Below are positions 5,863-34,042 of a DNA stretch of 64,000 bases, piece after piece. The position numbers and the translations under genes are program-made. The notes beneath the pieces were generated by a model that did no database searches, was not told the origin of the DNA, and saw only the letters and a list, made by a program, of their open reading frames with translations. Origin of the DNA: a candidate division TM6 bacterium GW2011_GWF2_28_16. Lineage in GTDB: Bacteria; Patescibacteriota; Microgenomatia; UBA1400; PJMF01. Every line of letters starts with the position of its first letter. Position 1 is the stretch's first letter. Location of the stretch: contig CP011212.1 in assembly GCA_001029715.1 (NCBI GenBank), positions 67,407-131,406 on the forward strand, in the 5' to 3' direction.

Positions 5863-6435
5863 ATGCGACAGGTTAATTTAGTTAATGATCAAGATGAAAT
5901 AATTGGGCAAACCGATCTCTTGGATGCTCATAGGGGAGAAGGAAAGAAGCATCAGGCTATTTCTTTATTTTTGTTTCATAAAAAAAGAAATGGCGAATTT
6001 GAACTATTAATTCAACAACGTAGCAATGAAAAAATTGTTGGTGCTTTAGAGTGGGCCAATACAATCTGTGCAAATTTATTACCAGGAGAAAATCATTTAA
6101 CTTGTTTGAAAAGAAGGGTTTTTGAAGAGCTTGGAATTAGATGGCAAGAGGAATGGCCACTAGAAAAAACAATGATTTTTGATTATCAAATTCCTTGCGA
6201 AAATGGTTTTTGTGAAAATGAAATTGATCATATTTTCGTTTCAGTTTTAGATGAAAAGCTGATTTCTAATTTGGAAATTTCACTAAATCCAAAAGAAGTG
6301 GTTGCCACTAGTTGGATTGATTGGAATGATCTCAAACTTAAAAAAGTAGGGGAGAAAAAAATAACTCCTTGGCTTAATCTATTTTTAGATAGCTCAGAAA
6401 TTATTAAAAAAATTGATCGGATGCTCATAAAATGA
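5863..6435 (+). CDS. idi: isopentenyl-diphosphate delta-isomerase, type 1 (Nudix fold)
   Basis: Matches the type-1 IDI layout: HRGEGKKHQAISLFLF.., QQRSNEKI.., WANTICANLLPGE, VFEELGI. Confidence 0.72.
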   Translation: MRQVNLVNDQDEIIGQTDLLDAHRGEGKKHQAISLFLFHKKRNGEFELLIQQRSNEKIVGALEWANTICANLLPGENHLTCLKRRVFEELGIRWQEEWPLEKTMIFDYQIPCENGFCENEIDHIFVSVLDEKLISNLEISLNPKEVVATSWIDWNDLKLKKVGEKKITPWLNLFLDSSEIIKKIDRMLIK

Positions 6436-7109
6436 CAGAAACAAAAAGCTTAGTTCCCAAACATGTAGCTATTATTATGGACGGTAATCGTCGCTGGGCT
6501 CGCCAACAGGGTTTGTCCATAATCAAAGGTCATCGCAAAGTTGCTGAGGAAATGATTGAGCGCCTGGCAGATTTTGCTATTGCCGAGGGAATAGAATATT
6601 TAACTCTTTGGGCTTTTAGTACAGAAAATTGGCAAAGACCAAAAGATGAATTAGATGGAATTATGGCTCTTTTTCGTGAAACCTTCTCTACTAGTGCCAA
6701 AAGACTACATAAAAAAGGAGTTAGAGTGGCTGTAATAGGGGATTTGAATCGTTTTCCAGATGATATTAGAAAAGGCGTGGAATTCTGGGTGGAAGAAACT
6801 AAAGAAAACAATAAGCTAATAGTGACTTTTGCCTTAAATTATGGTGGTAGAGATGATATTAAAAGAGCAGTTAAGCTTGGTGGTGAAGATTTCGAGAATT
6901 TTTTAGATACTAAAAGAGTAATTGATATTCCAGATCCAGATTTTTTGATTCGTCCCGGTGGGGAAAAAAGACTTTCTGGATTTTTAACTTGGCAGACGGT
7001 TTATACAGAATTGTATTTTACTGATGTTCTTATGCCGGACTTTGATGAAAAAGAATTTGCCAAAGCACTAGAAGACTATGCTCAGAGACAAAGAAGATTT
7101 GGGAAATAG
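6432..7109 (+). CDS. uppS: undecaprenyl-diphosphate synthase (cis-prenyltransferase)
   Basis: Shows HVAIIMDGNRRWA, LTLWAFSTENWQRP and LIRPGGEKRLSGFLTWQ. There is a 4-nt overlap with idi. Confidence 0.93.
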   Translation: MTETKSLVPKHVAIIMDGNRRWARQQGLSIIKGHRKVAEEMIERLADFAIAEGIEYLTLWAFSTENWQRPKDELDGIMALFRETFSTSAKRLHKKGVRVAVIGDLNRFPDDIRKGVEFWVEETKENNKLIVTFALNYGGRDDIKRAVKLGGEDFENFLDTKRVIDIPDPDFLIRPGGEKRLSGFLTWQTVYTELYFTDVLMPDFDEKEFAKALEDYAQRQRRFGK

Positions 7110-7135: not shown

Positions 7136-7498
7136 TTACCAGTTTTTAGCTGATCCAGGGATGGTGAAGTTTTTAATAACTTCAAGACCGGTAAAATCGG
7201 AAATCAAATTAACGATAATAAATGAGGACAGAGCTAAAATAATACCAACAACTGCCATGGTAATTGTATTTTTAGATTTTTCTGTAGCCTGACTATTGCC
7301 ACCCATGATCATCATGTTAAAGGCTGCGTAGATAATCATTATGAAGCCAGCAATACCGAGAGCAGTCAGTGCAATTGAAAAAACATTGGCCAACATACAT
7401 CCAATTCCCTGTATGGTTGCTGTGCCATTATTAACACATCCTTCACTAATGTCTGACCAGGCTTGGGTTTGTGCGTAGGCTTGTTTGACGATTTGCAT
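7136..7498 (-). CDS. TrbC/VirB2-like T4SS-pilin-family small membrane protein (paralog 1, most divergent)
   Basis: 120 aa with a two-helix hairpin and a loop GGNSQATEKSKNTITMAVVGIIL that aligns with the GGD..K...A...I..A.IGL loop of the six neighbours. Confidence 0.6.
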   Translation of the reverse strand: MQIVKQAYAQTQAWSDISEGCVNNGTATIQGIGCMLANVFSIALTALGIAGFIMIIYAAFNMMIMGGNSQATEKSKNTITMAVVGIILALSSFIIVNLISDFTGLEVIKNFTIPGSAKNW

Positions 7499-7517
7499 TT
7501 ATTTCTAGATTATATAT

Positions 7518-7549
7518 TTAAAAAACCCGCTTTAAAAGCGGGTTTTTTA
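7518..7549. terminator. rho-independent terminator, bidirectional geometry
   Basis: The stem aaaacccgc (7522-7530) pairs with gcgggtttt (7538-7546) for 9 bp, with a 7-nt loop tttaaaa. A/T runs lie on both sides. It sits directly downstream of the minus-strand gene 7570-7977. Confidence 0.8.
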
Positions 7550-7569
7550 TATTTTCCATAAAATAATGA

Positions 7570-7977
7570 TTATTTATTTGGATTATTGATGTCGCCGACA
7601 TTATTGAAAACGTCATTGAAGTCACCAAATCCTAAGAATTGGACAACTAGAGTAACTATAGCGTAAGAAGCAGCTACAATTACCAAGCCAATTACAGCGG
7701 AAGTGAGTTTGTTTCTAGCGCTTTCTGCTTTGGTTTTATCTCCGCCTGAAGTAATCCATTCGATGCCTCCCCAAATCATGTAGGCGAAAACTAAGAGGGC
7801 TGCAACGAGCATAACTACATTCAAGATAGAACTGAACATAGTACCAAAATTATTTGCATATCCCTTACCAGTGGTAATTGGTTGGATGTCAACTTCAGCC
7901 ATGGCCATAGAGGCTGTACTCAACATGGTACCCATAGCGGCTCCGGTAGCGAGGACGATTTTCTTTAATGATTTCAT
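7570..7977 (-). CDS. TrbC/VirB2-like T4SS-pilin-family protein (paralog 2)
   Basis: Has a signal peptide (..STASMAMA/EV) and the core WGGIEWITSGGDKTKAESARNKLTSAVIGLVIVAASYAIV. Confidence 0.75.
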   Translation of the reverse strand: MKSLKKIVLATGAAMGTMLSTASMAMAEVDIQPITTGKGYANNFGTMFSSILNVVMLVAALLVFAYMIWGGIEWITSGGDKTKAESARNKLTSAVIGLVIVAASYAIVTLVVQFLGFGDFNDVFNNVGDINNPNK

Positions 7978-8021
7978 AATTTTTTCCTTTTTAATTACTA
8001 AATTAATTTATTATAAATACG

Positions 8022-8030
8022 ATTATATCA
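8022..8030 (-). promoter_or_regulatory. extended -10 promoter element TGATATAAT for gene 7570-7977
   Basis: The minus strand reads cTTGATATAATcg. An AGGA Shine-Dalgarno lies 7 nt before the ATG at 7977. No properly spaced -35 is present. Confidence 0.45.
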
Positions 8031-8044
8031 AGTTTAGTCAACTT

Positions 8045-8383
8045 TTAATTAAAAGTCAAAACATCTATCCCCAAAAATCCTTCTAAGAGTAAGAAAATTG
8101 CAGTCACGGCGGCTAAAATAATTAGGCCAATAACGGCATTGCCAATTCTACTTCTGGCTTTTTCTAACTTGCCTGAATCACCTGCAGAGGTAATCCACTC
8201 AATTGCTCCCCAGATCAAAAAACCAAAAACTAGCACTGCTGCTAAAGTCATTACTGCGCTCATGATATTGCCAAAAAATAATCCAAAGCCACCATCACTG
8301 GAGTTGGCATATTCAGCACCTTGCAAACCTTGGCTTTGAGCTTCTCCAGCAATGTCTAATGTTAGAGCTATTTGTCTTGTCAT
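8045..8383 (-). CDS. TrbC/VirB2-like T4SS-pilin-family protein (paralog 3)
   Basis: Core WGAIEWITSAGDSGKLEKARSRIGNAVIGLIILAAVTAIF. Confidence 0.75.
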   Translation of the reverse strand: MTRQIALTLDIAGEAQSQGLQGAEYANSSDGGFGLFFGNIMSAVMTLAAVLVFGFLIWGAIEWITSAGDSGKLEKARSRIGNAVIGLIILAAVTAIFLLLEGFLGIDVLTFN

Positions 8384-8395
8384 ATTTTTTCGTTT

Positions 8396-8824
8396 TTAGT
8401 TATAAGTAGGCAGAGTTAATTTTAGTAAATCGAAGTTGTCGCCAAAGAAAATCTTACTAATAAAGCTAAGAATAGTGAAGGAGGCAACTAAAATAATTAA
8501 GCCAATCACGGCATTGGTTATTCTTTTTCTAGCATCTTCGGCTTTTTTACTATCAGAACCAGAGCTAATCCACTCAATTGCTCCCCAGATAAAATAGGCA
8601 ATTACAGCTAGTGCTCCCAAGTTAATACTAACCTTCCATAAATAAACTACGTAGTTAATGAATTTGCTGCCATCGGCGGCGCCAGTGTTCGTGCCTAATT
8701 CTCCAACTACAGGGTTTTCTATGGCAGCGTAAGCATTTGTGGCAAAAAATGAGAACATTACCAAAGAAAATAAACTGACAAAGATGGTGTTTTTATTTAG
8801 TTTCATATTTAAATTAAATATCAT
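8396..8824 (-). CDS. TrbC/VirB2-like T4SS-pilin-family protein (paralog 4)
   Basis: Has a signal peptide (..ATNAYA/AIE) and the core WGAIEWISSGSDSKKAEDARKRITNAVIGLIILVASFTIL. Its start overlaps the stop of paralog 5; ATG 8806 is an alternative start. Confidence 0.75.
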   Translation of the reverse strand: MIFNLNMKLNKNTIFVSLFSLVMFSFFATNAYAAIENPVVGELGTNTGAADGSKFINYVVYLWKVSINLGALAVIAYFIWGAIEWISSGSDSKKAEDARKRITNAVIGLIILVASFTILSFISKIFFGDNFDLLKLTLPTYN

Positions 8825-9180
8825 TTAGCTACGCCTGGAATAATATTTTGAATTAAATCTCCAGGATTTAGGATGTCAACTCCGACTAAACTACCGATCA
8901 GGCCAATAATAGCATAGCTAGCTACGATTAAAATTATGCCCAATGTTCCCCAAATAAATCTATTTTTAGCTTTTTCTACCTTACTACTGTCTCCTCCTGC
9001 AGTCGCCCATTCAAAAGCTGCTAAAAATGAGAAAACCACAAAAAATAAAATAGCTAAAACGGTAATCGCTCCAATAATATCGCTAAGATACAATTCCAAA
9101 GAAGAGACAAAACCCTCATTGGTTAAACTTTCTGGAGCTCTTGCTTCGCTAACTGGTTGTATTGATCCAATGTCTGCCAT
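8821..9180 (-). CDS. TrbC/VirB2-like T4SS-pilin-family protein (paralog 5)
   Basis: Core AAFEWATAGGDSSKVEKAKNRFIWGTLGIILIVASYAII. Confidence 0.7.
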   Translation of the reverse strand: MADIGSIQPVSEARAPESLTNEGFVSSLELYLSDIIGAITVLAILFFVVFSFLAAFEWATAGGDSSKVEKAKNRFIWGTLGIILIVASYAIIGLIGSLVGVDILNPGDLIQNIIPGVAK

Positions 9181-9181
9181 A

Positions 9182-9649
9182 TTAAGTACCTATCACTGTT
9201 GGTATTTGCGGATTAATAATATACGTTGCATCTCCAAAAACGAGCAAACTAATTACGCCAATAATTGTATATGCTGCAACAATCAGAAGCAGTCCGGTTA
9301 CGCTGAGTGATAATTTTTCGCCAATCTTGGCATAAGCCCCACTATCACCATTGGAAGAAACATAAGTAAAGCCTGCAAAGACAAAATTAAACATCACCCA
9401 AATTCCAGCAATAATCGAGGCAAACTTGATCATGTTAGAGATGAAAATAAGTAGGCCAATGCTGTTTGTTCCGTTAGACGCACTTTCGGCCTGTGTATTT
9501 AATTCTGCAACTCCTGCTGGTGCGTCAATTTTACCAAAGACACCCTCTGTTAGATTAGGAGTAGGAGTTACTGTTTGAGCAACAGCTAATTGATTGCTTG
9601 AAAATAAGAGCGCAAGGGTAAAAAGTAGACTTAAAAGAATTTTTTTCAT
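9182..9649 (-). CDS. TrbC/VirB2-like T4SS-pilin-family protein (paralog 6)
   Basis: Has a signal peptide (..NQLAVA/QT) and the core FAGFTYVSSNGDSGAYAKIGEKLSLSVTGLLLIVAAYTII. Confidence 0.65.
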   Translation of the reverse strand: MKKILLSLLFTLALLFSSNQLAVAQTVTPTPNLTEGVFGKIDAPAGVAELNTQAESASNGTNSIGLLIFISNMIKFASIIAGIWVMFNFVFAGFTYVSSNGDSGAYAKIGEKLSLSVTGLLLIVAAYTIIGVISLLVFGDATYIINPQIPTVIGT

Positions 9650-9679
9650 TTTATATTTTGATTATAAACCATTTATCTA

Positions 9680-10099
9680 TTAAAAACCCATATTAATGCC
9701 GGTTAGAAGTTGAATGATTTGCATAATCCAGTAAGCTGCAAACATAATAATAAAGCCAAGTACAGCAGAAGTCATGGTGGTTTTGGCTTTTTCCGCATCT
9801 TTTCCACCTCCTTGAATCATTGCAAATCCAGCGCCGACAATCATGACAAATAGAACTAAGCCCGCGCCGACAAAGAGTACTTTGACAATTAAATTTAGCA
9901 TGTCATCGGTACTATTAAAAACATCCTTGACTGGCGTGCCGTCTTTGAGAATGAGTTTCTCTCCCAGAGAAATTTCAACTTCTTCTACTTGTGCTGAGCT
10001 AGTAGCCCCAACGGCTAAAGCTAGAGGCGTTTTTATAAAAGAAAAATTAAAGACAAAAGCCGAGAAAAGAAGTAAAAATAATAAAAATTTGTTCTTCAT
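9680..10099 (-). CDS. TrbC/VirB2-like T4SS-pilin-family protein (paralog 7)
   Basis: Has a signal peptide and the core GAGFAMIQGGGKDAEKAKTTMTSAVLGFIIMFAAYWIM. Confidence 0.65.
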   Translation of the reverse strand: MKNKFLLFLLLFSAFVFNFSFIKTPLALAVGATSSAQVEEVEISLGEKLILKDGTPVKDVFNSTDDMLNLIVKVLFVGAGLVLFVMIVGAGFAMIQGGGKDAEKAKTTMTSAVLGFIIMFAAYWIMQIIQLLTGINMGF

Positions 10100-10139
10100 T
10101 GAAAATTATTATATTAGCTATATCGATATGTTTCTAGTG

Positions 10140-10152: not shown

Positions 10153-10713
10153 ATGCAAGATTTAACTCGTTTTGTTGGTTTCGACAATGAAGCAATTTTA
10201 GTGGAAGCCTTAAAGAATGGTAATGAATTGGCTGTCGAGTATTGGTTTAAAAAATATCGTCTTAAACTGAAAAAAATTGCTATTTTAAAAGTTCCTAGTC
10301 AAACGCAAGCTGCGGAAATTGTTCAAGAAACTTTCATTAATTGTCTACAAACCCTTAATTTATTTAAAGGTAATTCTTCACTTTTAACTTGGATGCAAAG
10401 CGTTATGCGTCATGAAATTGCTGACTTTTATCGCAAACGTTACGCAAAGAAATTTATTCAAACCATTCCTCTGAGTGATTTTCTTCTTGAACAGAACTAT
10501 AAAGATGCGGCGTCATCTGCAGAATTAGTAAGTCTGGTGCTTAAGAAAATGCTAAAAGAAAATCGAGAATTATTATTAAAAAAATATGTGGATTGTAAAA
10601 AAGTTAAAGATATTGCTTTCGAGATGGGTAATACCAGCAAAGCAGTTGAATCAAATTTGTTTAGAGCAAGACAAGAATTCAAGGCTTTGTGGTTAGAATT
10701 AGAAACAAAATGA
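10153..10713 (+). CDS. ECF-type RNA polymerase sigma-70 family factor
   Basis: Region 2 is recognisable (QETFINCLQTL..F....SLLTWMQSVMRHEIADFYRKR), as is the region 4 HTH (VKDIAFEMGNTSKAVESNLFRARQEFK). Confidence 0.85.
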   Translation: MQDLTRFVGFDNEAILVEALKNGNELAVEYWFKKYRLKLKKIAILKVPSQTQAAEIVQETFINCLQTLNLFKGNSSLLTWMQSVMRHEIADFYRKRYAKKFIQTIPLSDFLLEQNYKDAASSAELVSLVLKKMLKENRELLLKKYVDCKKVKDIAFEMGNTSKAVESNLFRARQEFKALWLELETK

Positions 10714-10904
10714 TAGAAAATAATTTTTTAAAGTTACTTAAAGATACTGCCAAAGAACAGAGTTATTTGGGTCAGGAAAAGCTAATTCCAGATCAACTAA
10801 GTGATCTGGCTAATTTTGTTGCCAATCATTTATGGCAAACGGCTTTGTTTTTAGCCTTTTTATCGACGATTTTATTAAATTTTTTAGCCACAATTAGACC
10901 ATGA
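10710..10904 (+). CDS. small single-pass membrane protein, candidate anti-sigma factor
   Basis: An ATGA overlap with the sigma gene stop indicates translational coupling. There is a C-terminal TM (LWQTALFLAFLSTILLNFL). The call rests on position only. Confidence 0.4.
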   Translation: MIENNFLKLLKDTAKEQSYLGQEKLIPDQLSDLANFVANHLWQTALFLAFLSTILLNFLATIRP

Positions 10905-11221
10905 AACATAAACAAAATAAATTTCTAATGATTTTTGACTCAATCATTTATTCCAGCGGACAAATGTTCCTTGGTTTGCTTTTGCATCCTTACCGCAGTA
11001 CTCAGCTTTTAGTTAAGAACAAGCTTTTATTACCATTTATTTTTTATCCTTTTTTAATTGCTTCCTTTTTTTATTTATTTATGCGAATTGATTTGATTTT
11101 GGGTTTTTACCAGAGTAACTTTTTCTTTAAATTTGCTTATCAAACGTTTTTATTCTTTTGTTTTTATTGGCAGATAGCTCTTTTTTATCTATGGTTTCGT
11201 TTTAGCAGGGTTTTTAATTAA
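10901..11221 (+). CDS. hypothetical multi-pass membrane protein
   Basis: Three hydrophobic segments and a 4-nt overlap with the upstream gene. No family recognised. Confidence 0.4.
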   Translation: MKHKQNKFLMIFDSIIYSSGQMFLGLLLHPYRSTQLLVKNKLLLPFIFYPFLIASFFYLFMRIDLILGFYQSNFFFKFAYQTFLFFCFYWQIALFYLWFRFSRVFN

Positions 11222-16218: not shown

Positions 16219-17325
16219 TTAGTTGAGAAGTCTGTCTATTTCTTTAAGCAAAATATTGATTGAATTTTGATTGTAAGCCTTAAGTTTTTTGATGTTTTTT
16301 GTAAAATCACTGATTTTCTCTGGATTCTCAATCAATTCTGCTAATTCTTTATTGGCTTTTTTGGCATTTTCTTCGACGATACCAATTTTAAAATCTCTAA
16401 TAATATCGAGATTACCATCTTCTTGACCATGGATGTGAGTAATAGCAAAAAACGGTTTTTCACAAGCCACGCTTTCAAATAAAGTATTTGGTCCAGCCTT
16501 ACCAACGATTAGATCGGCTGCCTGCATGTAGAGATGTAGCTCACTTGTATGATAAAGGGGAATAATTTCAGCCTTAGAAGAACTAAATTTGTCAAAACTC
16601 TGTTTGATACCAAGCATATTGTTATAAAGAAATTTATTTTTACCGCAGCTAATAATAAAGTTAACTTTTTGTTCACAGTTAATAATTGTTGGTAAAATTT
16701 TTAGAATAGCATTGGAACCCTCTGATCCAGAAACAATTAAAAAGGTCAAATCATTGCTAATTTTTAATTTTTTTCTAATTGTTTTTCGATCGTAATTATT
16801 TTCAAATTTACTTCTGATAAACCAGCCAGCCTTTTTCATATTTTTGTTTTTGTATTGTTTTACAAGATAATCATCAAAAACAAAATTGGAGTCAGCTTTT
16901 TCTGAAATTGTCAAAGAATGAACCGTTTTTGGATCAGTAACAATATTGATGAAAGGAATACCTTTTTGTTGAAATTTTTCTAGAATGGGATTACATTCAA
17001 AATAAGTACTTATACATAGGTTAATTTTATTTTTTTTGATAAAATCTGTTATTTCTTTATCGTAGTTCATTAAAAAATAAGCATCCGCCAATTTTCTAGC
17101 ACTCTTATCTTTTTGTGTTATTTTGGAGCTCCAATGAAAAGAAGAACCAATTGAAGTGGGGTTTATTTTAAATAAGTAGTCATAAGTTAAGTCCAACGCG
17201 CTTCGTTTGATAAAAAAGATTTTAATTGAATATTTATTTTTAGCATTTTCTTCAATTTTTTCTGCAATTGCCTTGGCTATGCTTTCGTGACCGTAGATGC
17301 TAGTAAAGATTCCAATGGTTTTCAT
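16219..17325 (-). CDS. glycosyltransferase, MGDG-synthase / GT28 (MurG-like C-terminal) family; probable glycolipid synthase
   Basis: The N-terminus is GIFTSIYGHESIA... The C-terminal GT-B block reads LIVSGSEGS ... ADLIVGKAGPNTLFESVACEKPF. Confidence 0.65.
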   Translation of the reverse strand: MKTIGIFTSIYGHESIAKAIAEKIEENAKNKYSIKIFFIKRSALDLTYDYLFKINPTSIGSSFHWSSKITQKDKSARKLADAYFLMNYDKEITDFIKKNKINLCISTYFECNPILEKFQQKGIPFINIVTDPKTVHSLTISEKADSNFVFDDYLVKQYKNKNMKKAGWFIRSKFENNYDRKTIRKKLKISNDLTFLIVSGSEGSNAILKILPTIINCEQKVNFIISCGKNKFLYNNMLGIKQSFDKFSSSKAEIIPLYHTSELHLYMQAADLIVGKAGPNTLFESVACEKPFFAITHIHGQEDGNLDIIRDFKIGIVEENAKKANKELAELIENPEKISDFTKNIKKLKAYNQNSINILLKEIDRLLN

Positions 17326-19303: not shown

Positions 19304-20337
19304 AATTTCCTGGAAAAATTATATTCAAGAATTTCTTTTAAAAGGAGATTCATCTCTTTAGGCTCTATTTCTGCGATTTCAACTTGAGCTTTTTTCTTAA
19401 ATTGATTAAGTAATTTTTCAATTTTTGTTTGGGCGAATTGTCTAAAAAGATTTTGAATTTTGATGATTTCTTCTTTGCTAAGATTTTTTTGTCCATATTT
19501 TGCCATTAAAAACTCTTTTTCTGATGGAGGAATTTCCTCTAGTAGAGTTAAATAGAAAAGTGTCTTCTTACCCTCTCTAATATCAGAGGCAAAACTTTTG
19601 CCAGAAAGCTCTTCCGGAGTAAAAATGCTGATAGAATCATCCACTATTTGGAAGATTAAGCCGAGCTTTTCACCGATTTTTTCAAGTTGTGTGATTTCCT
19701 CATCTTTTAATTCATTGATTAGTCCAGCTAATTTCAATGGAAGAGAAAAAGTATAGCGAGCTGTTTTGAAAAGATACATTTCTAAGACTTCATCAAAACT
19801 TGGAAGTTCTTTTTGCGAGGTAATTTTGCTATCTAACATTTCTGCAAAATTAGTTTTAATGATTTCTTCTGAAATAGTTGGAAGAATATTTGTTTCTCTT
19901 AATAAAGAAATAGCTAGGAAATTTGCAATGTTGGCAAGGCAAATCGCTTGGTTTTGCCCATATTCTTTAGGATTCTGATAGTTTTCTCTTTCAGCATCCA
20001 ATTCATATTGATACCAAATTGAATTTTGACCACGGCGCTTCTTATCTTGGTCAATAATATCGTCATGGATGAGTAGGCTTGAGTGAATTAATTCTAATGC
20101 GGCGGCAATCTTTAGAAGTTTTTTTTGTTCTGTTTGATATTTTTTTTCATCAAGAGATTTGACGGCAAGTAAAAAAAGTCCGCCGCGCACAGTTTTACCA
20201 CTGATTACAAAATCTTTAATTTTGCTAAAAGCATCTTTCACCAAGCTTTGTTTTTCAAATTTCTTTTCTTCCTCAGAAAGAAAAGAGAGTAGAAAATTAT
20301 CAATGAGTTGTTTTTCTTCTTGTAATTTTTCTATCAT
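19300..20337 (-). CDS. polyprenyl diphosphate synthase (trans-IPPS, FPP/GGPP synthase family)
   Basis: The first Asp-rich motif is LIHDDIIDQDKKRRG. The second motif region is FQIVDDSISIF (DDxxS rather than DDxxD), followed by GKSFASDIREGKKTL. Confidence 0.82.
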   Translation of the reverse strand: MIEKLQEEKQLIDNFLLSFLSEEEKKFEKQSLVKDAFSKIKDFVISGKTVRGGLFLLAVKSLDEKKYQTEQKKLLKIAAALELIHSSLLIHDDIIDQDKKRRGQNSIWYQYELDAERENYQNPKEYGQNQAICLANIANFLAISLLRETNILPTISEEIIKTNFAEMLDSKITSQKELPSFDEVLEMYLFKTARYTFSLPLKLAGLINELKDEEITQLEKIGEKLGLIFQIVDDSISIFTPEELSGKSFASDIREGKKTLFYLTLLEEIPPSEKEFLMAKYGQKNLSKEEIIKIQNLFRQFAQTKIEKLLNQFKKKAQVEIAEIEPKEMNLLLKEILEYNFSRKF

Positions 20338-21011
20338 TTTAAGATTTTTTCTATTGTTGCTTCTGCCAAAATAGCCATGGAATCAAAAATTTCTGTTCCA
20401 GCATATATTGGAGTTAATAGTTGCAGATCAGTGCAAGCTAAAACAACATGTTTAATATCTTTCTTTGCAAATTTCTGAATAATTTTAATTAACTCAGTCT
20501 GATCTTTTTCACTGTATCTACTGCGAACTAAATTGTTAATTAGTTGGCCAATTTTCTCCTGATCTTTTTCTATGGGTAAATGAATTTTAATATCTTTTAA
20601 ATTGTACAAATTTGTCTTGATGGTTGGATTTGTTGCCAATAAAGCGATCTCTTTAATATCTCTTTTTTTAAGAAATTTCTCTGTTTCTTCAACAATGCTT
20701 AAAACTGGGATTTTAACAACTTGACGCACAGCATCAATGGCTAAGTGTACGGAATTGCAGGGAATCACAATAAAGTCTGCGCCGCCATTCTCCAATCTTT
20801 TAGCTGCATCTTGGAGATATGGAATATATTTTTCAAATCCCTGAGCTTTAGTAATAAAATCTTGTTCAAGCTGATATTCTAGAGGAATGCTCCAGATCAG
20901 CACAGGTGGTCTCTTTTTTTTATTTTTTTCAAAACTAGAAAAAATCAGTTTTAAATAAAATTCAGCCGTAGTTTCTGGTCCCAATCCACCAATGATTCCC
21001 GTAGTCTGCAT
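20334..21011 (-). CDS. aspartate/glutamate racemase family protein
   Basis: Shows GIIGGLGPETTAEFY, ..IVIPCNSVH.. and ..VVLACTDL.., which supply the two catalytic Cys contexts. Confidence 0.8.
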   Translation of the reverse strand: MQTTGIIGGLGPETTAEFYLKLIFSSFEKNKKKRPPVLIWSIPLEYQLEQDFITKAQGFEKYIPYLQDAAKRLENGGADFIVIPCNSVHLAIDAVRQVVKIPVLSIVEETEKFLKKRDIKEIALLATNPTIKTNLYNLKDIKIHLPIEKDQEKIGQLINNLVRSRYSEKDQTELIKIIQKFAKKDIKHVVLACTDLQLLTPIYAGTEIFDSMAILAEATIEKILK

Positions 21012-26694: not shown

Positions 26695-27693
26695 ATGAAA
26701 AAAACAACGGTTCAAGCAGGTAGTGATATCGCTTTTGTTAAGTATTGGGGCAAAAAGGATAAAATCCTACGTTTACCAAGCAATGGTAGTATTTCCATGA
26801 TTTTAGATTCTTTGCAGAGCAAAACTACTGTCGAGTTTTTGCCAAATTTAGCTAAGGATGAGATCATAATAGGTGGCGAAGTTGAAGAGGGAGAGGCTTC
26901 TCGTGCCATTAAACATTTGGACAGAATTAGAACTTTAGCCAAAGAAAAAGGATTGATAGATAAAGATATTTTTGCTAAAGTCGTTTCGGAGAATAATTTT
27001 CCCAAGAGCACTGGTCTTTCTAGCTCTGGTTCTGGTTTTGCTGCTTTGACCATGGCTGCCACTAAGGCTATTGGTTTAGATCTTTCAGAAAAAGAATTGT
27101 CTATTTTAGCCAGGCAAGGATCTGGCTCTGCCTGTCGCTGTGTTTGTGGTGGTTTTGTTGAGTGGTTAGATGGTGAAACTTCTGAAGAATCTTATGCACA
27201 AAGCTTTGCTAAGTCAGAAGATTTTGATATTAGAGATTTAGTGGCGATTGTTTCAGAAGATAAAAAGAATTTAAGCTCAAGTGATGGACATGATTTAGCA
27301 GAAAGCAGTTTGTTTTTTAAGGCTCGTCAAGAAAAAATTGATACCAAGTTAGCAGCTGTCAAAAGAGCAATTTTACAAAAAGACTTTGAAACCCTAGGTG
27401 AAATAGTAGAAGCCGAGGCTTTAGAGTTTCACTCAATTTTATTAACCAGTCAGCCAACTATCTTGTTGTTTTATCCGGGAACGATTGAGGTGATGCAGGC
27501 TGTTCGTCAATTGCGTAAGACTGGTGTGCCAGTTTATTTCACTATTAATACCGGCTTCAATGTCCACATTTTGACTTTACCTCAATATGAGAAACAGGTA
27601 GCTGCTGTTTTGCAAAATTTACCAAGTGTGCAGAAAATTATTATCTCAGGAGCAGGTAATCAGCCAGAATATTTAGAAAAACATTTGTTTTAA
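26695..27693 (+). CDS. mvaD: diphosphomevalonate decarboxylase
   Basis: Shows SDIAFVKYWGKKD, PKSTGLSSSGSGFAAL and GSGSACR. ATG 26695 (MKKTTVQAG..) is preferred; the 46-codon upstream extension in the ORF track has no homology-like content. Confidence 0.85.
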   Translation: MKKTTVQAGSDIAFVKYWGKKDKILRLPSNGSISMILDSLQSKTTVEFLPNLAKDEIIIGGEVEEGEASRAIKHLDRIRTLAKEKGLIDKDIFAKVVSENNFPKSTGLSSSGSGFAALTMAATKAIGLDLSEKELSILARQGSGSACRCVCGGFVEWLDGETSEESYAQSFAKSEDFDIRDLVAIVSEDKKNLSSSDGHDLAESSLFFKARQEKIDTKLAAVKRAILQKDFETLGEIVEAEALEFHSILLTSQPTILLFYPGTIEVMQAVRQLRKTGVPVYFTINTGFNVHILTLPQYEKQVAAVLQNLPSVQKIIISGAGNQPEYLEKHLF

Positions 27694-28109
27694 AAACTTG
27701 GTGTCGAACTGCGACTGGCTTCGTATTGCTTAACTACTTCTTGGCAGTAAATATATTTGCCATATTCAAAAGCTTTTTCAGAAATATTTTGCTCGCCATT
27801 TTCGTCAACTCTGACGGCCTCTTGGACAAATTCTTGAGCAACTCCACCAGCCTCTTTGGCTTTTTCTGTCAAAATCTTAATTTGTGAAACACCATTTTCA
27901 CCTAAATTTTTAAAGTCTTCTTGCTTGAAATCAATTTGATCAAATTCAATTTCTTTATCTTTTTGCCAGGGAAGAGTGATACTTTTTGGGAGGCCTTCTT
28001 CTATTTTGGAAAAAATTTCATTATTAAGCCAACCTTTGTTTTTGGCAAATTTATAGGCAAAAACAACTAGAGCTATGGCGATAATAATGGTAAACAATTT
28101 GCGAAGCAT
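27690..28109 (-). CDS. hypothetical N-terminally anchored protein
   Basis: 139 aa with an N-terminal TM (LFTIIIAIALVVFAY) and no recognisable family. Its start codon lies inside a 9-bp hairpin (28104-28129). Confidence 0.5.
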   Translation of the reverse strand: MLRKLFTIIIAIALVVFAYKFAKNKGWLNNEIFSKIEEGLPKSITLPWQKDKEIEFDQIDFKQEDFKNLGENGVSQIKILTEKAKEAGGVAQEFVQEAVRVDENGEQNISEKAFEYGKYIYCQEVVKQYEASRSSTPSF

Positions 28110-28187
28110 GCTTTTATTTTAGCATGCTTTAAGGAGCGGCTGTGCACCCTGCGGGTACTACCCAGGTTTGCTTTGCAAACTTGGCGG

Positions 28188-28261
28188 TGCGTGTGCTAGG
28201 ACTCGAACCTAGAACCGCCAAGGTATAAGCTTGGAGCTCTAACCAATTGAGCTACACACGC
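28188..28261 (-). tRNA. tRNA-Ile, anticodon UAU
   Basis: The minus-strand sequence folds into a clean 74-nt cloverleaf: acceptor GCGTGTG/CACACGC, D arm GCTC-AATTGGTTA-GAGC, anticodon stem CCAAG/CTTGG with loop C-T-TAT-A-C, variable CGGTT, T arm CTAGG-TTCGAGT-CCTAG, discriminator A. CCA is not encoded. Confidence 0.88.
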
Positions 28262-31596: not shown

Positions 31597-32649
31597 ATGA
31601 AAAACAGTAAAAATAAAAAAATAGCTATAAATATAGAAAACGCTAGTAAACGCTATTTCTTGCGATCTGCAAAAGCTAAGAAAAAAGAAACTTTTTTTGC
31701 CTTAAAAGATATAAATATAAAAATATTTAAGGGAGAAAAAGTAGCTATTCTTGGTGACAATGGGGCTGGCAAGACTACTTTGCTCAAAGTAATGACTGGA
31801 ATAGCAGAACCAACTTGTGGGAAAGTGAATAGTATTGGTAAGCTTGTTTCCTTAATTGATATCACGGCTGGTTTTCATCCTGAGTTTTCAGGTCGTGAAA
31901 ATATTTATTTCAATGGCATTCTTTTAGGAATGAATCTTTCTTCAATTAAAAAATTAGAGCAAGAAATAATTAATTTTTCAGGTATAGAAAAATTTATAGA
32001 TCAAGCTCTTTATACCTATTCTTCAGGTATGGTTTTGCGGCTTGGTTTTTCTATTGCTATTCACAGCGATCCAGATATTTTAATTTTGGATGAGGAGGTG
32101 GTGGTGGGAGATCAGGATTTTCAGAAAAAGGCCTATGATGAAATTGAGAAGATTTTTGCTGAAGGTAAAACCATTGTTGTTTGTAGTCATGTTTTACCTT
32201 TACTGAGTAGACTTTGTGAGCGCTTCATCTGGCTAGATAAAGGCAAAGTAAAAATGGATGGAGGTAAAGAGGTTGTTATTGAATATAAAAAGAATCGAAG
32301 TAAATTGGATATAGAAAAAATTGGCAAGATTAAAAATGAAAAAAAATTTTTTCAATTTCTGCAATCTTTGCCAATCGGAGAGAGGTTTATTGTAGAAGCA
32401 GTCAGTGGCAGTATGGAGCCACTTATCTTAAAGGGCGATGAGGTAAGAGTTGAAAGGTGTTCACTTAAAAATATAAGAGTTGGCAACATAATTGCTTATT
32501 GGAGCGATGAATTTAAAAATATCATTGTTCATAGAATTTATAAGAAAAGCTCTAAGGGGATTTTCTTGACTAGAGGAGATAGTAACTATATTGTAGATGA
32601 GATGCCAGTCACAGAAGATATTTTTTTAGGTAAAGTTATTAATTTTTAA
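31597..32649 (+). CDS. ABC transporter ATP-binding protein (Wzt/TagH-like) fused to a C-terminal S24/S26-superfamily (SipW/Sec11-type) peptidase domain
   Basis: The NBD shows Walker A GDNGAGKTTL, TagH-like AGFHPEFSGRENIY, signature YSSGM and Walker B ILILDE. The C-terminal roughly 95 aa show SGSMEPLILKGDEV, IIVHRIY and TRGDSNYIVDE. No hydrophobic segment lies between the domains. ATG 31597 is preferred over 31579. Confidence 0.8.
   Translation: MKNSKNKKIAINIENASKRYFLRSAKAKKKETFFALKDINIKIFKGEKVAILGDNGAGKTTLLKVMTGIAEPTCGKVNSIGKLVSLIDITAGFHPEFSGRENIYFNGILLGMNLSSIKKLEQEIINFSGIEKFIDQALYTYSSGMVLRLGFSIAIHSDPDILILDEEVVVGDQDFQKKAYDEIEKIFAEGKTIVVCSHVLPLLSRLCERFIWLDKGKVKMDGGKEVVIEYKKNRSKLDIEKIGKIKNEKKFFQFLQSLPIGERFIVEAVSGSMEPLILKGDEVRVERCSLKNIRVGNIIAYWSDEFKNIIVHRIYKKSSKGIFLTRGDSNYIVDEMPVTEDIFLGKVINF
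32350..32646 (+). other. peptidase-like domain of the ABC ATPase (candidate Ser at nt 32410-32412 in SGSMEP, candidate His at 32530-32532 in VHRI)
   Basis: The box order SGSMEP - GD - VHR - GDSN..D matches the conserved boxes B, C, D and E of ER/archaeal-type signal peptidases (S26B). Confidence 0.6.
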
Positions 32650-32934
32650 ATGAGGATAAATATGAAAATATTATATATTCGAGACAATGATCTTTATTTT
32701 AAGGAGGAAGACGGCAAAATATTGGTTTTAAAAAAGAACAAAAAAGAAATTGTGGAATTAAATGAGGTTGGCTCTTTGATTTGGAAAGCTTTGAAGACGA
32801 AGAAGTCTATTGATGCTTTGGTGAAAAAAATAAATTCAGCTTTTGAGGGGGCAGATTCTAAGGAGGTAAAAAAAGATGTTGAGGAGTTTATTCTCAAGTG
32901 TTTAAAAGATTCAATAATAGAAAAAATAAATTAG
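32650..32934 (+). CDS. PqqD-family protein (RiPP recognition element-like)
   Basis: 94 aa with the pattern ..DGKILVLKKNKKEIVELNEVGSLIWKAL..KKSIDALVKKINSAFE....EVKKDVEEFILKCLKDSII. This is the typical PqqD/RRE layout of a beta-strand region followed by a winged helix. Its start abuts the upstream stop. Confidence 0.75.
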   Translation: MRINMKILYIRDNDLYFKEEDGKILVLKKNKKEIVELNEVGSLIWKALKTKKSIDALVKKINSAFEGADSKEVKKDVEEFILKCLKDSIIEKIN

Positions 32935-32938
32935 AGTT

Positions 32939-33922
32939 ATGAAAAAAATTAGCAGACAAGAGTTTGATTATTTAATTAAAAAAAGAAAGCTTGAAGATCC
33001 AAAGAAAATTAAAGCTTTTGAAAAAATACTAAAAGATGAGCGCGGTTATGTTTTCAAAATGCCTAAAAGAGGTTCGAATGTTATTTTAATGGCTTCTGGT
33101 GGACTTGATTCAATGGTTGTTTGGGGAATTTTAATGAAAGAATATGGCTTGAATGTTTATCCGATTACTTTTGACAGAGGTGAAAAAAAAAGAAACAGGG
33201 AATTTGCTGCTTTTAAATATTTTGATAAATTTTATCAGAAAAAATTTCCTAAAAATTATAGAAAATTTTTAGATTTAGACGTAGGACAAGATCAGATTTC
33301 AATAAAAATTGAAGACGGTGTCAAAGATCTACGAGAAGAAACATTATTAAATAATTTTAGAGATGACTTAATGTTTTTTAACCCCTCTTTAGGTGTTTTT
33401 ACTATCTTGCCACTTTTTGCACGTAGTTATGCCATGTATCTAAATGCAATTAAAGGTCTAAAAATTAATACTATTTTTTGTGCCGTCACAGCCAATGATG
33501 GGGAATTAATTGCTCATCAAACCTTAACTTCATTGAGGTCTATTATGTGCAACATGTGTGTTTCAATCAAAGATTATTCTTGGCAGTTTTTGTCAATTTG
33601 TTTAGAGCCAGAAATTAATTCTTTTATAAAGAAATCAGATCTTGTTAAGTGGGGAGAAGATAATAGTTTACCACTAGAAAAATCTTGGAGTTGTTACCAT
33701 GCGAAAAAGTATCAATGTGGTGGAGATAACTGTATTGCTTGTGAAGCGAGAAGAAAAGCATATTTAGAGGCAAAAATAGAAGATAGAACTATTTATAAAA
33801 GCCTTGCAGATCAGGAGATCCTAATTAAAAAAGCGAAAAAAACTTTAAGAAAGTATCTTTCTAGAACAAAAAAGAACTTAATAAACACAGTTAAACGTTT
33901 TTTTGAAGATACGATAAGATAG
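32939..33922 (+). CDS. QueC-like PP-loop ATP pyrophosphatase (divergent, with ~45-aa N-terminal extension)
   Basis: The PP-loop is VILMASGGLDSMVVW, followed by ITFDRGEK (QueC: FDYGQR). The C-terminal four-Cys cluster SCYHAKKYQCGGDNCIACEARR sits at the position of the QueC zinc site. Confidence 0.7.
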   Translation: MKKISRQEFDYLIKKRKLEDPKKIKAFEKILKDERGYVFKMPKRGSNVILMASGGLDSMVVWGILMKEYGLNVYPITFDRGEKKRNREFAAFKYFDKFYQKKFPKNYRKFLDLDVGQDQISIKIEDGVKDLREETLLNNFRDDLMFFNPSLGVFTILPLFARSYAMYLNAIKGLKINTIFCAVTANDGELIAHQTLTSLRSIMCNMCVSIKDYSWQFLSICLEPEINSFIKKSDLVKWGEDNSLPLEKSWSCYHAKKYQCGGDNCIACEARRKAYLEAKIEDRTIYKSLADQEILIKKAKKTLRKYLSRTKKNLINTVKRFFEDTIR

Positions 33923-33964
33923 AACTATCAAGGGGAAATCTAAGAATGCTGTTTAGAACTAAAT

Positions 33965-34033: not shown

Positions 34034-34042
34034 TGTAATTTA

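What the first reader, a model, noticed from the sequence alone, without database searches (positions are those of the whole stretch)
7136..10099. Seven tandem, highly diverged T4SS-pilin-like (TrbC/VirB2-type) genes next to an ECF sigma factor
Seven consecutive minus-strand genes (112-155 aa) all encode a two-helix hairpin. The inter-helix loop follows W(G/A)xIEWxxSGGDxxKxxxAxxxIxxAxIGL, degenerating in paralogs 1, 6 and 7.

Four paralogs have cleavable signal peptides and three do not. Outside the loop the sequences are strongly diverged.

The array is split into transcription units. Paralogs 7-3 are packed with overlaps or gaps of 30 nt or less. Paralog 2 has its own TGATATAAT element and a strong terminator. 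Paralog 1 has its own TATAAT 10 nt from the ATG.

No VirB3/4/6/8-11 genes are adjacent. The only T4SS-type ATPase in the window is 47 kb away. An ECF sigma and a putative anti-sigma are divergently transcribed from the array's upstream end.

This could be a repertoire of alternative surface filament or adhesion subunits in an episymbiont rather than a conjugation pilus.
Basis: partly seen in the sequence, partly recalled or inferred. Interest (0 to 1): 0.6.

Follow-up and report, generated by a model that had tools for sequence, protein, structure and literature searches.

The report
Patescibacterial T4SS-pilin-like gene array
Seven neighbouring genes in an ultra-small (Patescibacteria, Woesebacteria-like) bacterium encode diverged copies of a small two-helix membrane protein of the 'T4SS pilin' family; such arrays are already described for this phylum, so this is an ordinary member, but it shows a fixed seven-member set, one probable major subunit and a conserved sigma-factor neighbour.

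Summary
Seven minus-strand genes (7136-10099, 112-155 aa) each encode a two-helix hairpin with a conserved loop. Five pass the Pfam PF18895 (T4SS_pilin) threshold and two fall just below it.

The kind is already published. Quinonero-Coronel et al. 2025 report 441 VirB2-like arrays of 2-11 genes in Patescibacteria, abundant in Microgenomatia. Wang et al. 2023 showed such an array is essential in a Saccharibacterium.

Three details go beyond those papers:
- The seven paralogs are seven fixed orthogroups in the same order in 29 of 29 related seven-gene loci. This argues against a swappable or antigenic repertoire.
- par2 is a conserved monocistron with a canonical promoter, a Shine-Dalgarno site and a terminator, and is the best conserved paralog. 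It is probably the major subunit and the other six are minor ones.
- The sigma plus two small membrane ORFs lie divergent from the array in 57 of 66 species, and in 4 of 4 loci found through sigma.

Caveats: there is no detectable sequence homology to canonical VirB2/TrbC, no VirB4 lies nearby, and the array promoters look housekeeping-type. Sigma control and pilus formation are therefore inferences.

The parts
7570..7977 (-). par2: PF18895 pilin-like protein and probable major subunit. It has a signal peptide (MKSLKK...AMA|EV) and is a monocistronic unit.
   Evidence: PF18895 at 35.4 bits, the best of the seven. It has the highest ortholog identity (63% mean, loop 87%). Its own promoter with Shine-Dalgarno is found in 28/29 loci and its terminator in 24/29. 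In the AF2 model the hairpin H44-76/H81-114 has pLDDT about 90.
7136..7498 (-). par1: pilin-like paralog with a short leader (MQIVKQAYA|QTQ) in place of a full signal peptide, and a conserved Cys pair. It has its own leaderless-type promoter.
   Evidence: PF18895 at 28.5 bits. Its orthogroup is fixed in 29/29 loci. Distant orthologs carry a full signal peptide. The L001/L006 ortholog has a C-terminal Cys-rich extension.
8045..8383 (-). par3: pilin-like paralog without a signal peptide. Its length (112-113 aa) is highly conserved.
   Evidence: PF18895 at 34.2 bits. None of 30 orthologs has an N-terminal h-region. It is the best match at its own array position in 27/29 loci.
8396..8824 (-). par4: pilin-like paralog with a signal peptide.
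   Evidence: PF18895 at 34.8 bits. A signal-peptide h-region is found in 21/30 orthologs. Its orthogroup is fixed in 29/29 loci.
8821..9180 (-). par5: pilin-like paralog without a signal peptide. It overlaps par4 by 4 nt.
   Evidence: PF18895 at 34.4 bits. Only 1/30 orthologs has an N-terminal h-region. Its orthogroup is fixed in 29/29 loci.
9182..9649 (-). par6: diverged pilin-like paralog with a signal peptide.
   Evidence: PF18895 at 23.1 bits, below the gathering score of 26.6. The family-specific HMM gives E=3.6e-35. A signal peptide is found in 28/30 orthologs. Its orthogroup is fixed in 29/29 loci.
9680..10099 (-). par7: the first gene of the array and the most diverged paralog, with a signal peptide.
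   Evidence: PF18895 at 20.4 bits, below the gathering score. The family HMM gives E=4.4e-30. Its orthogroup is fixed in 29/29 loci, with the lowest ortholog identity at 48%.
8022..8030 (-). Extended -10 element TGATATAAT of the par2 promoter, followed by a leader of about 40 nt with an AAGGA Shine-Dalgarno at 7985-7989.
   Evidence: Read directly from the sequence. TAWAAT lies upstream of par2 orthologs in 28/29 loci and TGnTAWAAT in 21/29, usually with TTGAC about 17 nt upstream and AAGGAG before the ATG.
7519..7549 (.). Palindromic GC-rich intrinsic terminator (AAAAAACCCGC-TTTTAAA-GCGGGTTTTTT) that ends the par2 transcript.
   Evidence: The terminator scan reports 14 stem pairs. A hairpin of -12 to -22 kcal/mol followed by a T-run sits at the same place in 24/29 orthologous loci.
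7509..7514 (-). TATAAT 10 nt before the par1 ATG, a leaderless-type promoter.
   Evidence: TAWAAT lies in the par2-par1 gap in 18/29 loci.
10108..10113 (-). TATAAT 8 nt before the par7 ATG, with TAGAAA 17 nt upstream. It is the promoter of the par7-par3 operon.
   Evidence: A TATAAT-type box 3-17 nt before the first pilin ATG recurs across most of the 54 loci. The same style precedes at least six unrelated genes in the window.
10153..10713 (+). ECF-type (group 4) sigma factor, divergent from the array across a 53-nt spacer.
   Evidence: Sigma70_r2 and Sigma70_r4_2 hits, and TIGR02937 at 58.3 bits against a cutoff of 42.9. It is adjacent to the array in 57/66 species loci and in 4/4 sigma-anchored loci.
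10689..10904 (+). sm71: small tail-anchored membrane protein, a candidate minimal anti-sigma. The true start is probably the ATG at 10710.
   Evidence: It has one C-terminal TM helix (residues 51-69) and matches no family. It is present in all 59 sigma-bearing loci.
10901..11221 (+). sm106: small polytopic membrane protein with the conserved motif GLLLHPYxTxQxLV. It is the third gene of the sigma module.
   Evidence: It matches no family. It is present in all 59 sigma-bearing loci, and its motif is at least 90% conserved.

Best explanation
What it is. This is an ordinary, chromosomal member of the 'VirB2-like pilin arrays' already described in Patescibacteria. The host is a Microgenomatia (Woesebacteria/Pacebacteria-like) bacterium.

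The proteins. Each of the seven genes encodes a small protein that inserts into the cytoplasmic membrane as a two-helix hairpin. Both termini face outward. The short, conserved, positively charged loop faces the cytoplasm, and would face the lumen of an assembled filament.

Proposed mechanism (inferred). An MPF-FATA-like VirB4 type IV secretion machine, encoded elsewhere in the genome, extracts the proteins from the membrane. It polymerises them into a pilus-like surface structure or conduit used in the epibiotic interaction with a host cell.

Roles of the paralogs. The seven are not interchangeable. They are seven ancient, fixed orthogroups. par2 is the best conserved and is expressed from its own canonical promoter, Shine-Dalgarno site and terminator, so it is most likely the major subunit. 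par7-par3 (one operon) and par1 are lower-abundance minor or specialised subunits, for example for initiation, the tip or adhesion.

The sigma module. The divergent ECF sigma and its two small membrane ORFs form a conserved partner module. It most likely senses or tunes envelope status linked to these membrane pilins. It is probably not the main driver of the array promoters.

Shown: family membership, hairpin fold, orthogroup fixity, transcription architecture and sigma linkage.

Inferred: pilus formation, dependence on a T4SS, major and minor roles, and the function of the sigma module.
For: Family:
- PF18895 is above the gathering score for 5/7 paralogs, and 143/148 array members across 18 species hit it.
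- A family HMM finds only these seven ORFs in the window.
- Homologs of par2 carry Woesebacteria or Pacebacteria names.

Fold:
- The AF2 hairpin has pLDDT about 90.

Published knowledge:
- 441 arrays of 2-11 pilin genes with mean identity 25%, abundant in Microgenomatia (PMC12102498).
- The pilin array is essential in S. epibionticum (PMC10633639; PMC12857230).
- T4SS pilins are among the five most highly expressed signal-peptide genes in two Paceibacteria MAGs (PMC10936435).

Non-redundancy:
- The best-hit matrix is diagonal in 29/29 loci (27/29 for par3).
- Ortholog identity is 48-63%, against 15-38% between paralogs.
- Signal-peptide status is position-specific and conserved.

par2 as the major subunit:
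- Its promoter with Shine-Dalgarno is present in 28/29 loci and its terminator in 24/29.
- It has the highest conservation, with 87% identity in the loop.

Topology:
- Relatives carry large Cys-rich extracellular domains fused at either terminus of the hairpin.
- Within orthogroups the termini evolve about twice as fast as the core.

Sigma linkage:
- 57/66 loci carry the sigma module, against 36/75 for the next-best neighbour, uppS.
- 4/4 independent sigma-anchored loci carry a divergent array.
Against: - No pilus made by a Patescibacterial T4SS has been seen.
- No VirB4, VirB6 or other T4SS machinery lies in the 64-kb window.
- Among representatives of all large unannotated ORFs within 10 kb of the array in 80 species, no T4SS family appeared among the 25 of 36 Pfam families displayed. 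No homolog of the window's T4CP was found in these loci.
- There is no detectable sequence homology to canonical VirB2. hhalign gives probability 0.7% and score 16.3, against 15.7-16.9 for reversed controls. A profile search of PDB sequences finds nothing.
- Three of the seven proteins lack a signal peptide.
- The major/minor assignment rests on promoter, Shine-Dalgarno, terminator and conservation patterns only. There are no expression data for this organism.
- All recognisable array promoters are TATAAT-type, like many unrelated genes here. This gives no support for direct ECF control.
Confidence: 0.6

Rival explanations
1. The array is a repertoire of alternative, interchangeable surface subunits. 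It would be used for antigenic or phase variation or for matching different host strains.
For: - The paralogs are strongly diverged, at 16-39% identity.
- The outward-facing termini evolve about twice as fast as the core.
- Array size varies from 5 to 11 genes across more distant species.
- There are several internal promoters.
- Bartonella and Anaplasma offer a precedent (cited).
Against: - Each paralog is a distinct orthogroup in the same order in 29/29 loci.
- The best-hit matrix shows no sign of turnover or gene conversion.
- Signal-peptide status and protein lengths are position-specific and conserved.
- par7-par3 are co-transcribed with gaps of 30 nt or less, so they cannot be chosen individually.
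- All pilins of the S. epibionticum array are reported as essential.
Confidence: 0.15
2. The proteins are not filament subunits. They are small integral membrane components that stay in the membrane, for example VirB3/PrgI-like parts of the translocon or an envelope scaffold. The neighbouring ECF sigma/anti-sigma module would monitor their load.
For: - There is no sequence homology to VirB2.
- Monoderm T4SSs normally lack pili.
- The two-TM hairpin fold is generic.
- The family is tightly linked to a membrane-anchored sigma module.
- Three paralogs lack signal peptides.
Against: - Family members carry large Cys-rich extracellular domains at either terminus. This suits surface display better than a translocon part.
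- par2 has the hallmarks of very high expression, and relatives are among the top expressed secreted proteins.
- No VirB3 or PrgI Pfam family is among the top families hit by 148 members.
Confidence: 0.15
3. The array is a T4SS-independent surface filament or adhesion system that is assembled by Sec/YidC alone. It would be transcriptionally controlled by the adjacent ECF sigma in response to host contact.
For: - The array is uncoupled from any T4SS gene in the window and in 80 related loci.
- The sigma linkage is conserved in 57/66 loci and in 4/4 sigma-anchored loci.
Against: - The promoters of par7, par6, par2 and par1 are TATAAT-type, with par2 close to the full housekeeping consensus. They do not resemble most characterised ECF promoters.
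- No known mechanism extracts a two-TM hairpin from a membrane into a filament without a VirB4-type ATPase.
- In other Patescibacteria classes the same family sits inside virB4 clusters. The pilin gene is near virB4 in 1135 of 1948 assemblies.
Confidence: 0.1

Closest known systems
VirB2-like pilin arrays of Patescibacteria (Quinonero-Coronel et al. 2025, PMC12102498), including the essential six-pilin array of Ca. Southlakia epibionticum ML1 (Wang et al. 2023, PMC10633639)
   Same: - Same Pfam family (PF18895).
- Tandem array of 2-11 genes.
- Mean paralog identity of about 25%.
- Monoderm host of the same phylum.
- The Microgenomatia class is named in the paper as rich in such arrays.
   Different: - Here the array is not in a virB4 cluster, whereas the S. 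epibionticum array is inside the T4SS locus.
- Not reported in those papers: a divergent ECF sigma with two small membrane ORFs.
- Not reported in those papers: strict orthogroup and order conservation.
- Not reported in those papers: a monocistronic, promoter/terminator-flanked par2.
Canonical conjugative pilins VirB2/TrbC/TraA (Pfam PF04956; the T-pilus and F-pilus)
   Same: - Small size.
- A cleavable signal peptide in four of the seven.
- A two-helix hairpin with both termini outward and a basic loop that would face the lumen.
   Different: - No detectable sequence or profile similarity.
- A monoderm host.
- No adjacent VirB machinery.
- Seven paralogs instead of one major pilin.
- No evidence for cyclisation or acetylation.
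Major and minor pilin sets of type IV pili and type II secretion pseudopili
   Same: One highly expressed major subunit sits next to several co-transcribed, diverged but conserved minor subunits that share a conserved hydrophobic core. This is an analogy of logic only.
   Different: - Unrelated fold: a hairpin rather than an N-terminal helix with a globular head.
- No prepilin-peptidase site.
- A different assembly ATPase family.
Mbov_0395 / MMCAP2_0565 pilin-like conjugal transfer protein of Mycoplasma ICEs (NCBIfam NF045849)
   Same: It is the best non-Pfam sequence match. Six of the seven paralogs hit it with E between 2e-7 and 5e-3 across the whole 80-residue model. It comes from a wall-less monoderm with an MPF-FATA-type T4SS.
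   Different: - All scores (16-30 bits) are below the curated 40-bit cutoff.
- It is a single gene on a mobile element, not a chromosomal seven-gene array.

Membership tests
Pfam PF18895 T4SS_pilin | The whole-protein score reaches the gathering cutoff of 26.6 bits. | tested here: met
   par1-5 score 28.5-35.4 bits. par6 (23.1) and par7 (20.4) fall below the cutoff. Both are recovered at E below 1e-29 by an HMM built from the array family, and both are positional orthologs of members in 29 loci.
Patescibacterial VirB2-like pilin array (as defined in PMC12102498) | Two to eleven pilin-family genes in tandem or separated by one non-pilin gene, with low identity between copies (mean about 25%, maximum 54%), in a Patescibacteria genome. 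| tested here: met
   Seven contiguous genes with pairwise identity of 16-39%. The closest homologs carry Woesebacteria, Pacebacteria or Microgenomates names.
Patescibacterial VirB2-like pilin array | Located near virB4. This holds in 1135 of 1948 assemblies, so it is not obligatory. | tested here: not met
   No VirB4-like protein lies in the 64-kb window. The only ORFs of at least 600 aa are DUF4012, ValS, DNA ligase, Wzy_C and a T4CP-like ATPase. No T4SS family appeared among the 25 of 36 Pfam families displayed for representatives of the large flanking ORFs in 80 loci.
TrbC/VirB2 pilin (Pfam PF04956) | Sequence or profile similarity to the family. | tested here: not met
   The best hit is 13.5 bits (par4) against a cutoff of 27.9. 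Only 15/148 array members hit at E of 0.1 or less, the same level as unrelated TM families. hhalign against 120 true VirB2 sequences gives probability 0.7% and score 16.3, against 15.7-16.9 for reversed controls.
TrbC/VirB2 pilin | A two-helix hairpin with a short basic loop, termini outward, and an N-terminal signal peptide. | tested here: inconclusive
TrbC/VirB2 pilin | Polymerises into an extracellular pilus through a VirB4-dependent T4SS. | not testable with these tools
   This needs microscopy or biochemistry. No Patescibacterial T4SS pilus has been visualised according to the 2025 review.
ECF (group 4) sigma factor | Only the sigma-2 and sigma-4 domains are present, and the protein passes the ECF superfamily model. 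| tested here: met
   Sigma70_r2 at 36.6 bits, Sigma70_r4_2 at 33.8 bits, and TIGR02937 at 58.3 bits against a cutoff of 42.9, in a 186-aa protein.
ECF sigma / anti-sigma pair | A co-transcribed downstream gene with a recognisable anti-sigma domain. | tested here: inconclusive
   sm71 overlaps the sigma stop, is tail-anchored, and is conserved in all sigma-bearing loci. It matches no Pfam or NCBIfam family and has no zinc-finger motif.
ECF sigma regulon (array as target) | An ECF-type promoter, distinct from the TATAAT type, lies upstream of the target and usually of the sigma gene itself. | tested here: not met
   The first pilin gene, par6, par2, par1 and the sigma gene all carry TATAAT/TAAAAT-type -10 boxes. 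par2 orthologs carry a near-consensus TTGAC-N17-TGnTATAAT. ECF promoters of this phylum are uncharacterised, so this does not exclude control.
NCBIfam NF045849 Mbov_0395 pilin-like conjugal transfer protein | The score reaches the curated cutoff of 40 bits. | tested here: not met
   Scores are 16.4-30.3 bits, with E between 2.4e-7 and 5e-3 for six of the seven. This indicates a related family, not membership.

The most novel reading that the evidence does not exclude
In Microgenomatia the pilin array has been detached from the T4SS gene cluster and has become a self-contained module with a dedicated ECF sigma, a tail-anchored anti-sigma and a small membrane sensor. The module builds a heteromeric pilus from one major subunit (par2) and six fixed minor subunits. 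The sigma module couples pilin supply or envelope stress to host contact. This would be the first regulatory circuit and the first major/minor subunit architecture proposed for any T4SS-type pilus in a monoderm.
Probability: 0.25. Interest if true: 0.6.

Novelty: new member of a known kind. Interest (0 to 1): 0.38.

Why it matters
Patescibacteria make up a large share of uncultured bacterial diversity and live attached to host cells. In the one species tested genetically, the T4SS and its pilin array are essential, yet what they build and do is unknown.

This locus adds no new kind of system. The comparison across about 80 species does give testable structure to the problem:
- The paralogs are fixed and non-redundant.
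- One paralog looks like the major subunit.
- A sigma/anti-sigma-like module travels with the array.

These points tell experimenters which gene to tag or image first (par2 orthologs), which to knock down for tip or initiation roles, and which regulator to perturb.

Tried and rejected
- A profile search of the par2 family against PDB sequences found nothing at E up to 10.
- Foldseek against the PDB gave no hit with E below 1.
- hhalign against a true VirB2 alignment equalled the reversed controls, so I rejected the claim of demonstrable VirB2 homology.
- tblastn of par2 against 72,556 plasmids and 50,697 phages found no match, so the family is not carried on known mobile elements.
- A PADLOC scan of the ATPase neighbourhood gave only generic HerA/FtsK-type P-loop hits and was uninformative.
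- A search for an ECF-type promoter in the sigma-pilin spacer found only TATAAT-type boxes. The spacer is 53 nt here and 26-45 nt in four sigma-anchored relatives, too short to hold much else.
- I tested whether the large protein that follows arrays in the distant clade is a VirB1-like hydrolase. Only 2 of 9 members tested show an SLT or SLT_3 domain, which is too weak to claim.
- The 515-665-aa polytopic protein downstream of distant arrays has no Pfam hit. A VirB6-like role remains a guess.
- I could not locate virB4 of this organism.

Full report
**1. Observation**

The seven minus-strand ORFs are present exactly as described:

| Paralog | Coordinates | Length |
|---|---|---|
| par1 | 7136-7498 | 120 aa |
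| par2 | 7570-7977 | 135 aa |
| par3 | 8045-8383 | 112 aa |
| par4 | 8396-8824 | 142 aa |
| par5 | 8821-9180 | 119 aa |
| par6 | 9182-9649 | 155 aa |
| par7 | 9680-10099 | 139 aa |

The gaps from par1 to par7 are 71, 67, 12, -4, 1 and 30 nt. All seven proteins align over two long hydrophobic helices separated by a short charged loop. The loop motif is clear in par2-4, partial in par5, and degenerate in par1, par6 and par7.

par2, 4, 6 and 7 begin with signal-peptide-like segments that end in AxA. par1, 3 and 5 do not.

- TGATATAAT at 8030-8022.
- A palindromic terminator at 7519-7549.
- A TATAAT 10 nt before the par1 ATG.

The divergent gene at 10153-10713 is an ECF-type sigma factor.

The only T4SS-type ATPase in the window is at 57678-60020. 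Its best matches are the coupling proteins TraD, VirD4, TrwB and DotL, all weak, so it is a T4CP homologue and not a VirB4.

**2. Family**

Pfam PF18895 (T4SS_pilin) is the top hit for all seven. It is above the gathering score for par1-5 and just below it for par6 and par7. An HMM trained on the array family recovers exactly these seven ORFs in the 64-kb window.

PF04956 (TrbC/VirB2) is not matched in any meaningful way:
- The best score is 13.5 bits against a cutoff of 27.9.
- Only 15 of 148 array members from 18 species hit it, no more than hit unrelated membrane families.

I also tested the VirB2 link directly. I recovered 120 genuine VirB2 proteins and ran a profile-profile comparison. 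The probability was 0.7% and the score 16.3, the same as the reversed-profile controls at 15.7-16.9.

A profile search of PDB sequences found nothing.

The best additional sequence link is NCBIfam NF045849, a pilin-like conjugal transfer protein of Mycoplasma ICEs. E-values go down to 2e-7, but all scores are below its cutoff.

The family assignment to PF18895 is therefore solid. The 'VirB2-type' label rests on fold and context, not on demonstrable sequence homology.

**3. Organism and literature**

Homologs of par2 come from Woesebacteria, Pacebacteria and Microgenomates MAGs.

The kind of feature is already published:
- Quinonero-Coronel et al. 2025 (PMC12102498) searched 3,035 Patescibacteria genomes with PF18895 and related profiles. 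They report 441 'VirB2 arrays' of 2-11 pilin genes in 383 assemblies. [quoted passage not shown] The pilin gene is near virB4 in 1135 of 1948 assemblies.
- Wang et al. 2023 (PMC10633639) found the pilin series inside the T4SS cluster of S. epibionticum to be essential.
- A 2025 review (PMC12857230) discusses the possibility of a pilus on a monoderm.
- Kuroda et al. 2024 (PMC10936435) found T4SS pilins among the five most highly expressed signal-peptide genes in two Paceibacteria MAGs.

None of these papers, nor a search combining Patescibacteria, ECF sigma and pilin, mentions a sigma factor next to the arrays.

**4. Comparative anatomy**

These results come from 80 species loci, four further loci and four sigma-anchored loci.

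(a) Array size. Among arrays wholly inside a locus, sizes are 5-11 genes. Seven is the commonest size, found in 30 loci.

(b) Fixed orthogroups. In the 29 other seven-gene loci, each window paralog finds its best match at the same array position in 29, 29, 29, 29, 27, 29 and 29 loci. Mean ortholog identity is 48-63%, against 15-38% across positions. The duplications therefore predate these species, and order and identity have been frozen since.

(c) Signal peptides are position-specific:
- par3 and par5 orthologs essentially never have one.
- par6 and par4 orthologs usually do.
- par1 has a truncated leader (MQIVKQAYA|QTQ) in close relatives and a full signal peptide in distant ones.

(d) Core versus termini. 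Within orthogroups the helix-loop-helix core is 47-87% identical, with the par2 loop at 87%. The outward-facing termini are 21-54% identical.

(e) Extracellular fusions. More distant relatives contain 360-545-aa proteins made of a signal peptide, a large Cys-rich extracellular region and a C-terminal pilin hairpin. One par1 ortholog carries a C-terminal Cys-rich extension. Both termini can therefore carry extracellular cargo.

**5. Transcription architecture**

Upstream of par2 orthologs there is a near-consensus housekeeping promoter in 28 of 29 loci. It has the form TTGAC-N~17-TGnTATAAT, and the TG extension is present in 21 of 29. A leader of about 40 nt and an AAGGAG Shine-Dalgarno site follow. 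A GC-rich intrinsic terminator follows the gene in 24 of 29 loci.

par7 to par3 have median gaps of 30, 3, 5 and 3 nt and no terminators.

par7, par6 and par1 are preceded by TATAAT boxes 8-17 nt from the ATG. This leaderless style is also seen at the sigma gene and at six or more unrelated genes in the window.

A strongly signalled, monocistronic, best-conserved par2 next to a co-transcribed set of diverged paralogs is the pattern expected for one major subunit plus minor subunits.

**6. The sigma module**

The sigma and two small ORFs lie immediately upstream of, and divergent from, the array in 57 of 66 loci with enough flank. The two ORFs are sm71, which is tail-anchored, and sm106, which carries the conserved motif GLLLHPYxTxQxLV.

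The count of 57 was reached as follows. One search counted 47 under a strict non-overlap rule. Ten further loci listed have sigma present but with its longest-ORF call overlapping the first pilin ORF. Nine loci lack the module.

The next most conserved neighbour, uppS, is adjacent in only 36 of 75 loci. The sigma linkage survives rearrangements that move recF, carbK, uppS and valS.

Starting from sigma instead of the pilins, four distant homologs (48-55% identity) on long contigs were examined. All four sit 26-45 nt from a divergent 6-9-gene PF18895 array.

The linkage is thus robust in both directions. However, the promoters in the tiny spacer are TATAAT-type, so there is no positive evidence that this sigma transcribes the array. 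sm71 has no recognisable anti-sigma domain.

**7. Link to a T4SS**

Nothing in the window besides the orphan T4CP-like ATPase belongs to a T4SS. No homolog of that ATPase lies within 10 kb of the array in 80 species. No T4SS family appeared among the 25 of 36 Pfam families displayed for representatives of the large flanking ORFs in those loci.

In the distant clade with 8-11 pilin genes, the array is followed on the same strand by two conserved genes:
- An 800-1440-aa secreted protein in 30 loci. Only 2 of 9 members tested show a lytic-transglycosylase-like domain.
- A 515-665-aa polytopic membrane protein in 24 loci, with no family hit.

Neither has a homolog in this window. Dependence on a T4SS is therefore inferred from the family's behaviour in other classes, not shown here.

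**8. Interpretation**

The best-supported reading is a conserved, non-redundant set of pilin-like subunits, with par2 as the major one and six as minor ones. They would be assembled by a VirB4-type machine encoded elsewhere into a surface structure used in epibiosis. A co-inherited ECF sigma/anti-sigma-like module would sense or tune envelope status.

Three rivals remain:
- An interchangeable antigenic or host-range repertoire. The frozen orthogroups and co-transcription disfavour this.
- Membrane-resident, non-filament components.
- A T4SS-independent, sigma-controlled filament.

**9. Verdict**

The feature is a new member of an already described kind, so its interest is moderate.

The added value lies in three comparative findings that I did not find in the literature searched:
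- The orthogroups are fixed.
- par2 is a conserved monocistron.
- The sigma module travels with the array.

Noticed in passing
window 57678-60020 (+): An orphan VirD4/TraD-like coupling-protein (T4CP) homologue of 780 aa. It has no other T4SS gene beside it. Its neighbours are a GH3 hydrolase, DUF192, GDSL lipases and unannotated small proteins. The literature notes about two such T4CP homologues per Patescibacteria genome, rarely near virB4 and non-essential in S. epibionticum.
   Followed up: partly
L028, L032, L042, L044, L045, L047, L050, L053, L056, L057, L060, L061, L062, L065, L066, L079, L084 (e.g. L044:1175-2677): Proteins of 360-545 aa consisting of a signal peptide, a large Cys-rich extracellular region and a C-terminal pilin hairpin. 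They usually occur as a pair at the head of the array or just beyond uppS. They could be adhesin-bearing or tip pilins. No counterpart exists in the window.
   Followed up: partly
L001/L006:10520-11287: The par1 ortholog is 255 aa instead of 120. The extra length is a C-terminal low-complexity linker followed by two Cys-rich repeats after the hairpin.
   Followed up: no
L040:11531-14899 and L040:15936-17549 (and 30 / 24 other loci): In species with 8-11 pilin genes, the array is followed on the same strand by a secreted protein of 800-1440 aa and, 4-5 kb further on, by a 515-665-aa protein with a signal peptide and a polytopic membrane domain. The first has a weak SLT, SLT_3 or glycosyl-hydrolase domain in a minority of members. 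The second has no family hit. They are possible VirB1-like and VirB6-like partners, but this is unproven.
   Followed up: partly
window, many gene starts (e.g. 10153, 13238, 14347, 16219-17325(-), 20334-21011(-), 27690-28109(-), 54445): TAWAAT boxes lie 12-17 nt upstream of the start codon with no Shine-Dalgarno sequence. This suggests that leaderless mRNAs are common in this organism. par2 is an exception, with a long leader and an AAGGA site.
   Followed up: partly
window 28186-28261 (-): A tRNA-Ile with anticodon UAU (ARAGORN 'tat'; Rfam tRNA at 71.7 bits). From my own knowledge, this is an uncommon way for bacteria to read AUA, because most use a lysidine-modified CAU tRNA.
   Followed up: no
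window about 32000-50000: A low-GC block (26-31% against about 33-42% in the flanking DNA). It holds two Wzy_C/O-antigen-ligase-like membrane proteins (35870-37435 and 47839-50139) and a glycosyltransferase-like protein (44396-45868). It is probably a surface-glycan gene cluster.
   Followed up: partly
window 5863-7109 and related loci L085-L088: The array is flanked by uppS (Prenyltransf) and a NUDIX gene. In more distant relatives it is flanked by mevalonate-pathway genes (HMG-CoA reductase and synthase, GHMP kinases). The pilin/sigma module therefore sits inside an isoprenoid or undecaprenyl-phosphate synthesis neighbourhood.
   Followed up: no
window 10901-11221 (+): The small membrane protein sm106 has a nearly invariant motif GLLLHPYxTxQxLV across 59 species and matches no Pfam or NCBIfam family. 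It always follows sigma and sm71.
   Followed up: partly
L005-L008 and many other loci (record titles): Many of the MAG records that carry this clearly Patescibacterial locus are titled 'uncultured Pseudomonadales bacterium', and one is titled 'Vitreimonas sp.' (L029). These are probably mislabelled or chimeric records in the public collection.
   Followed up: no
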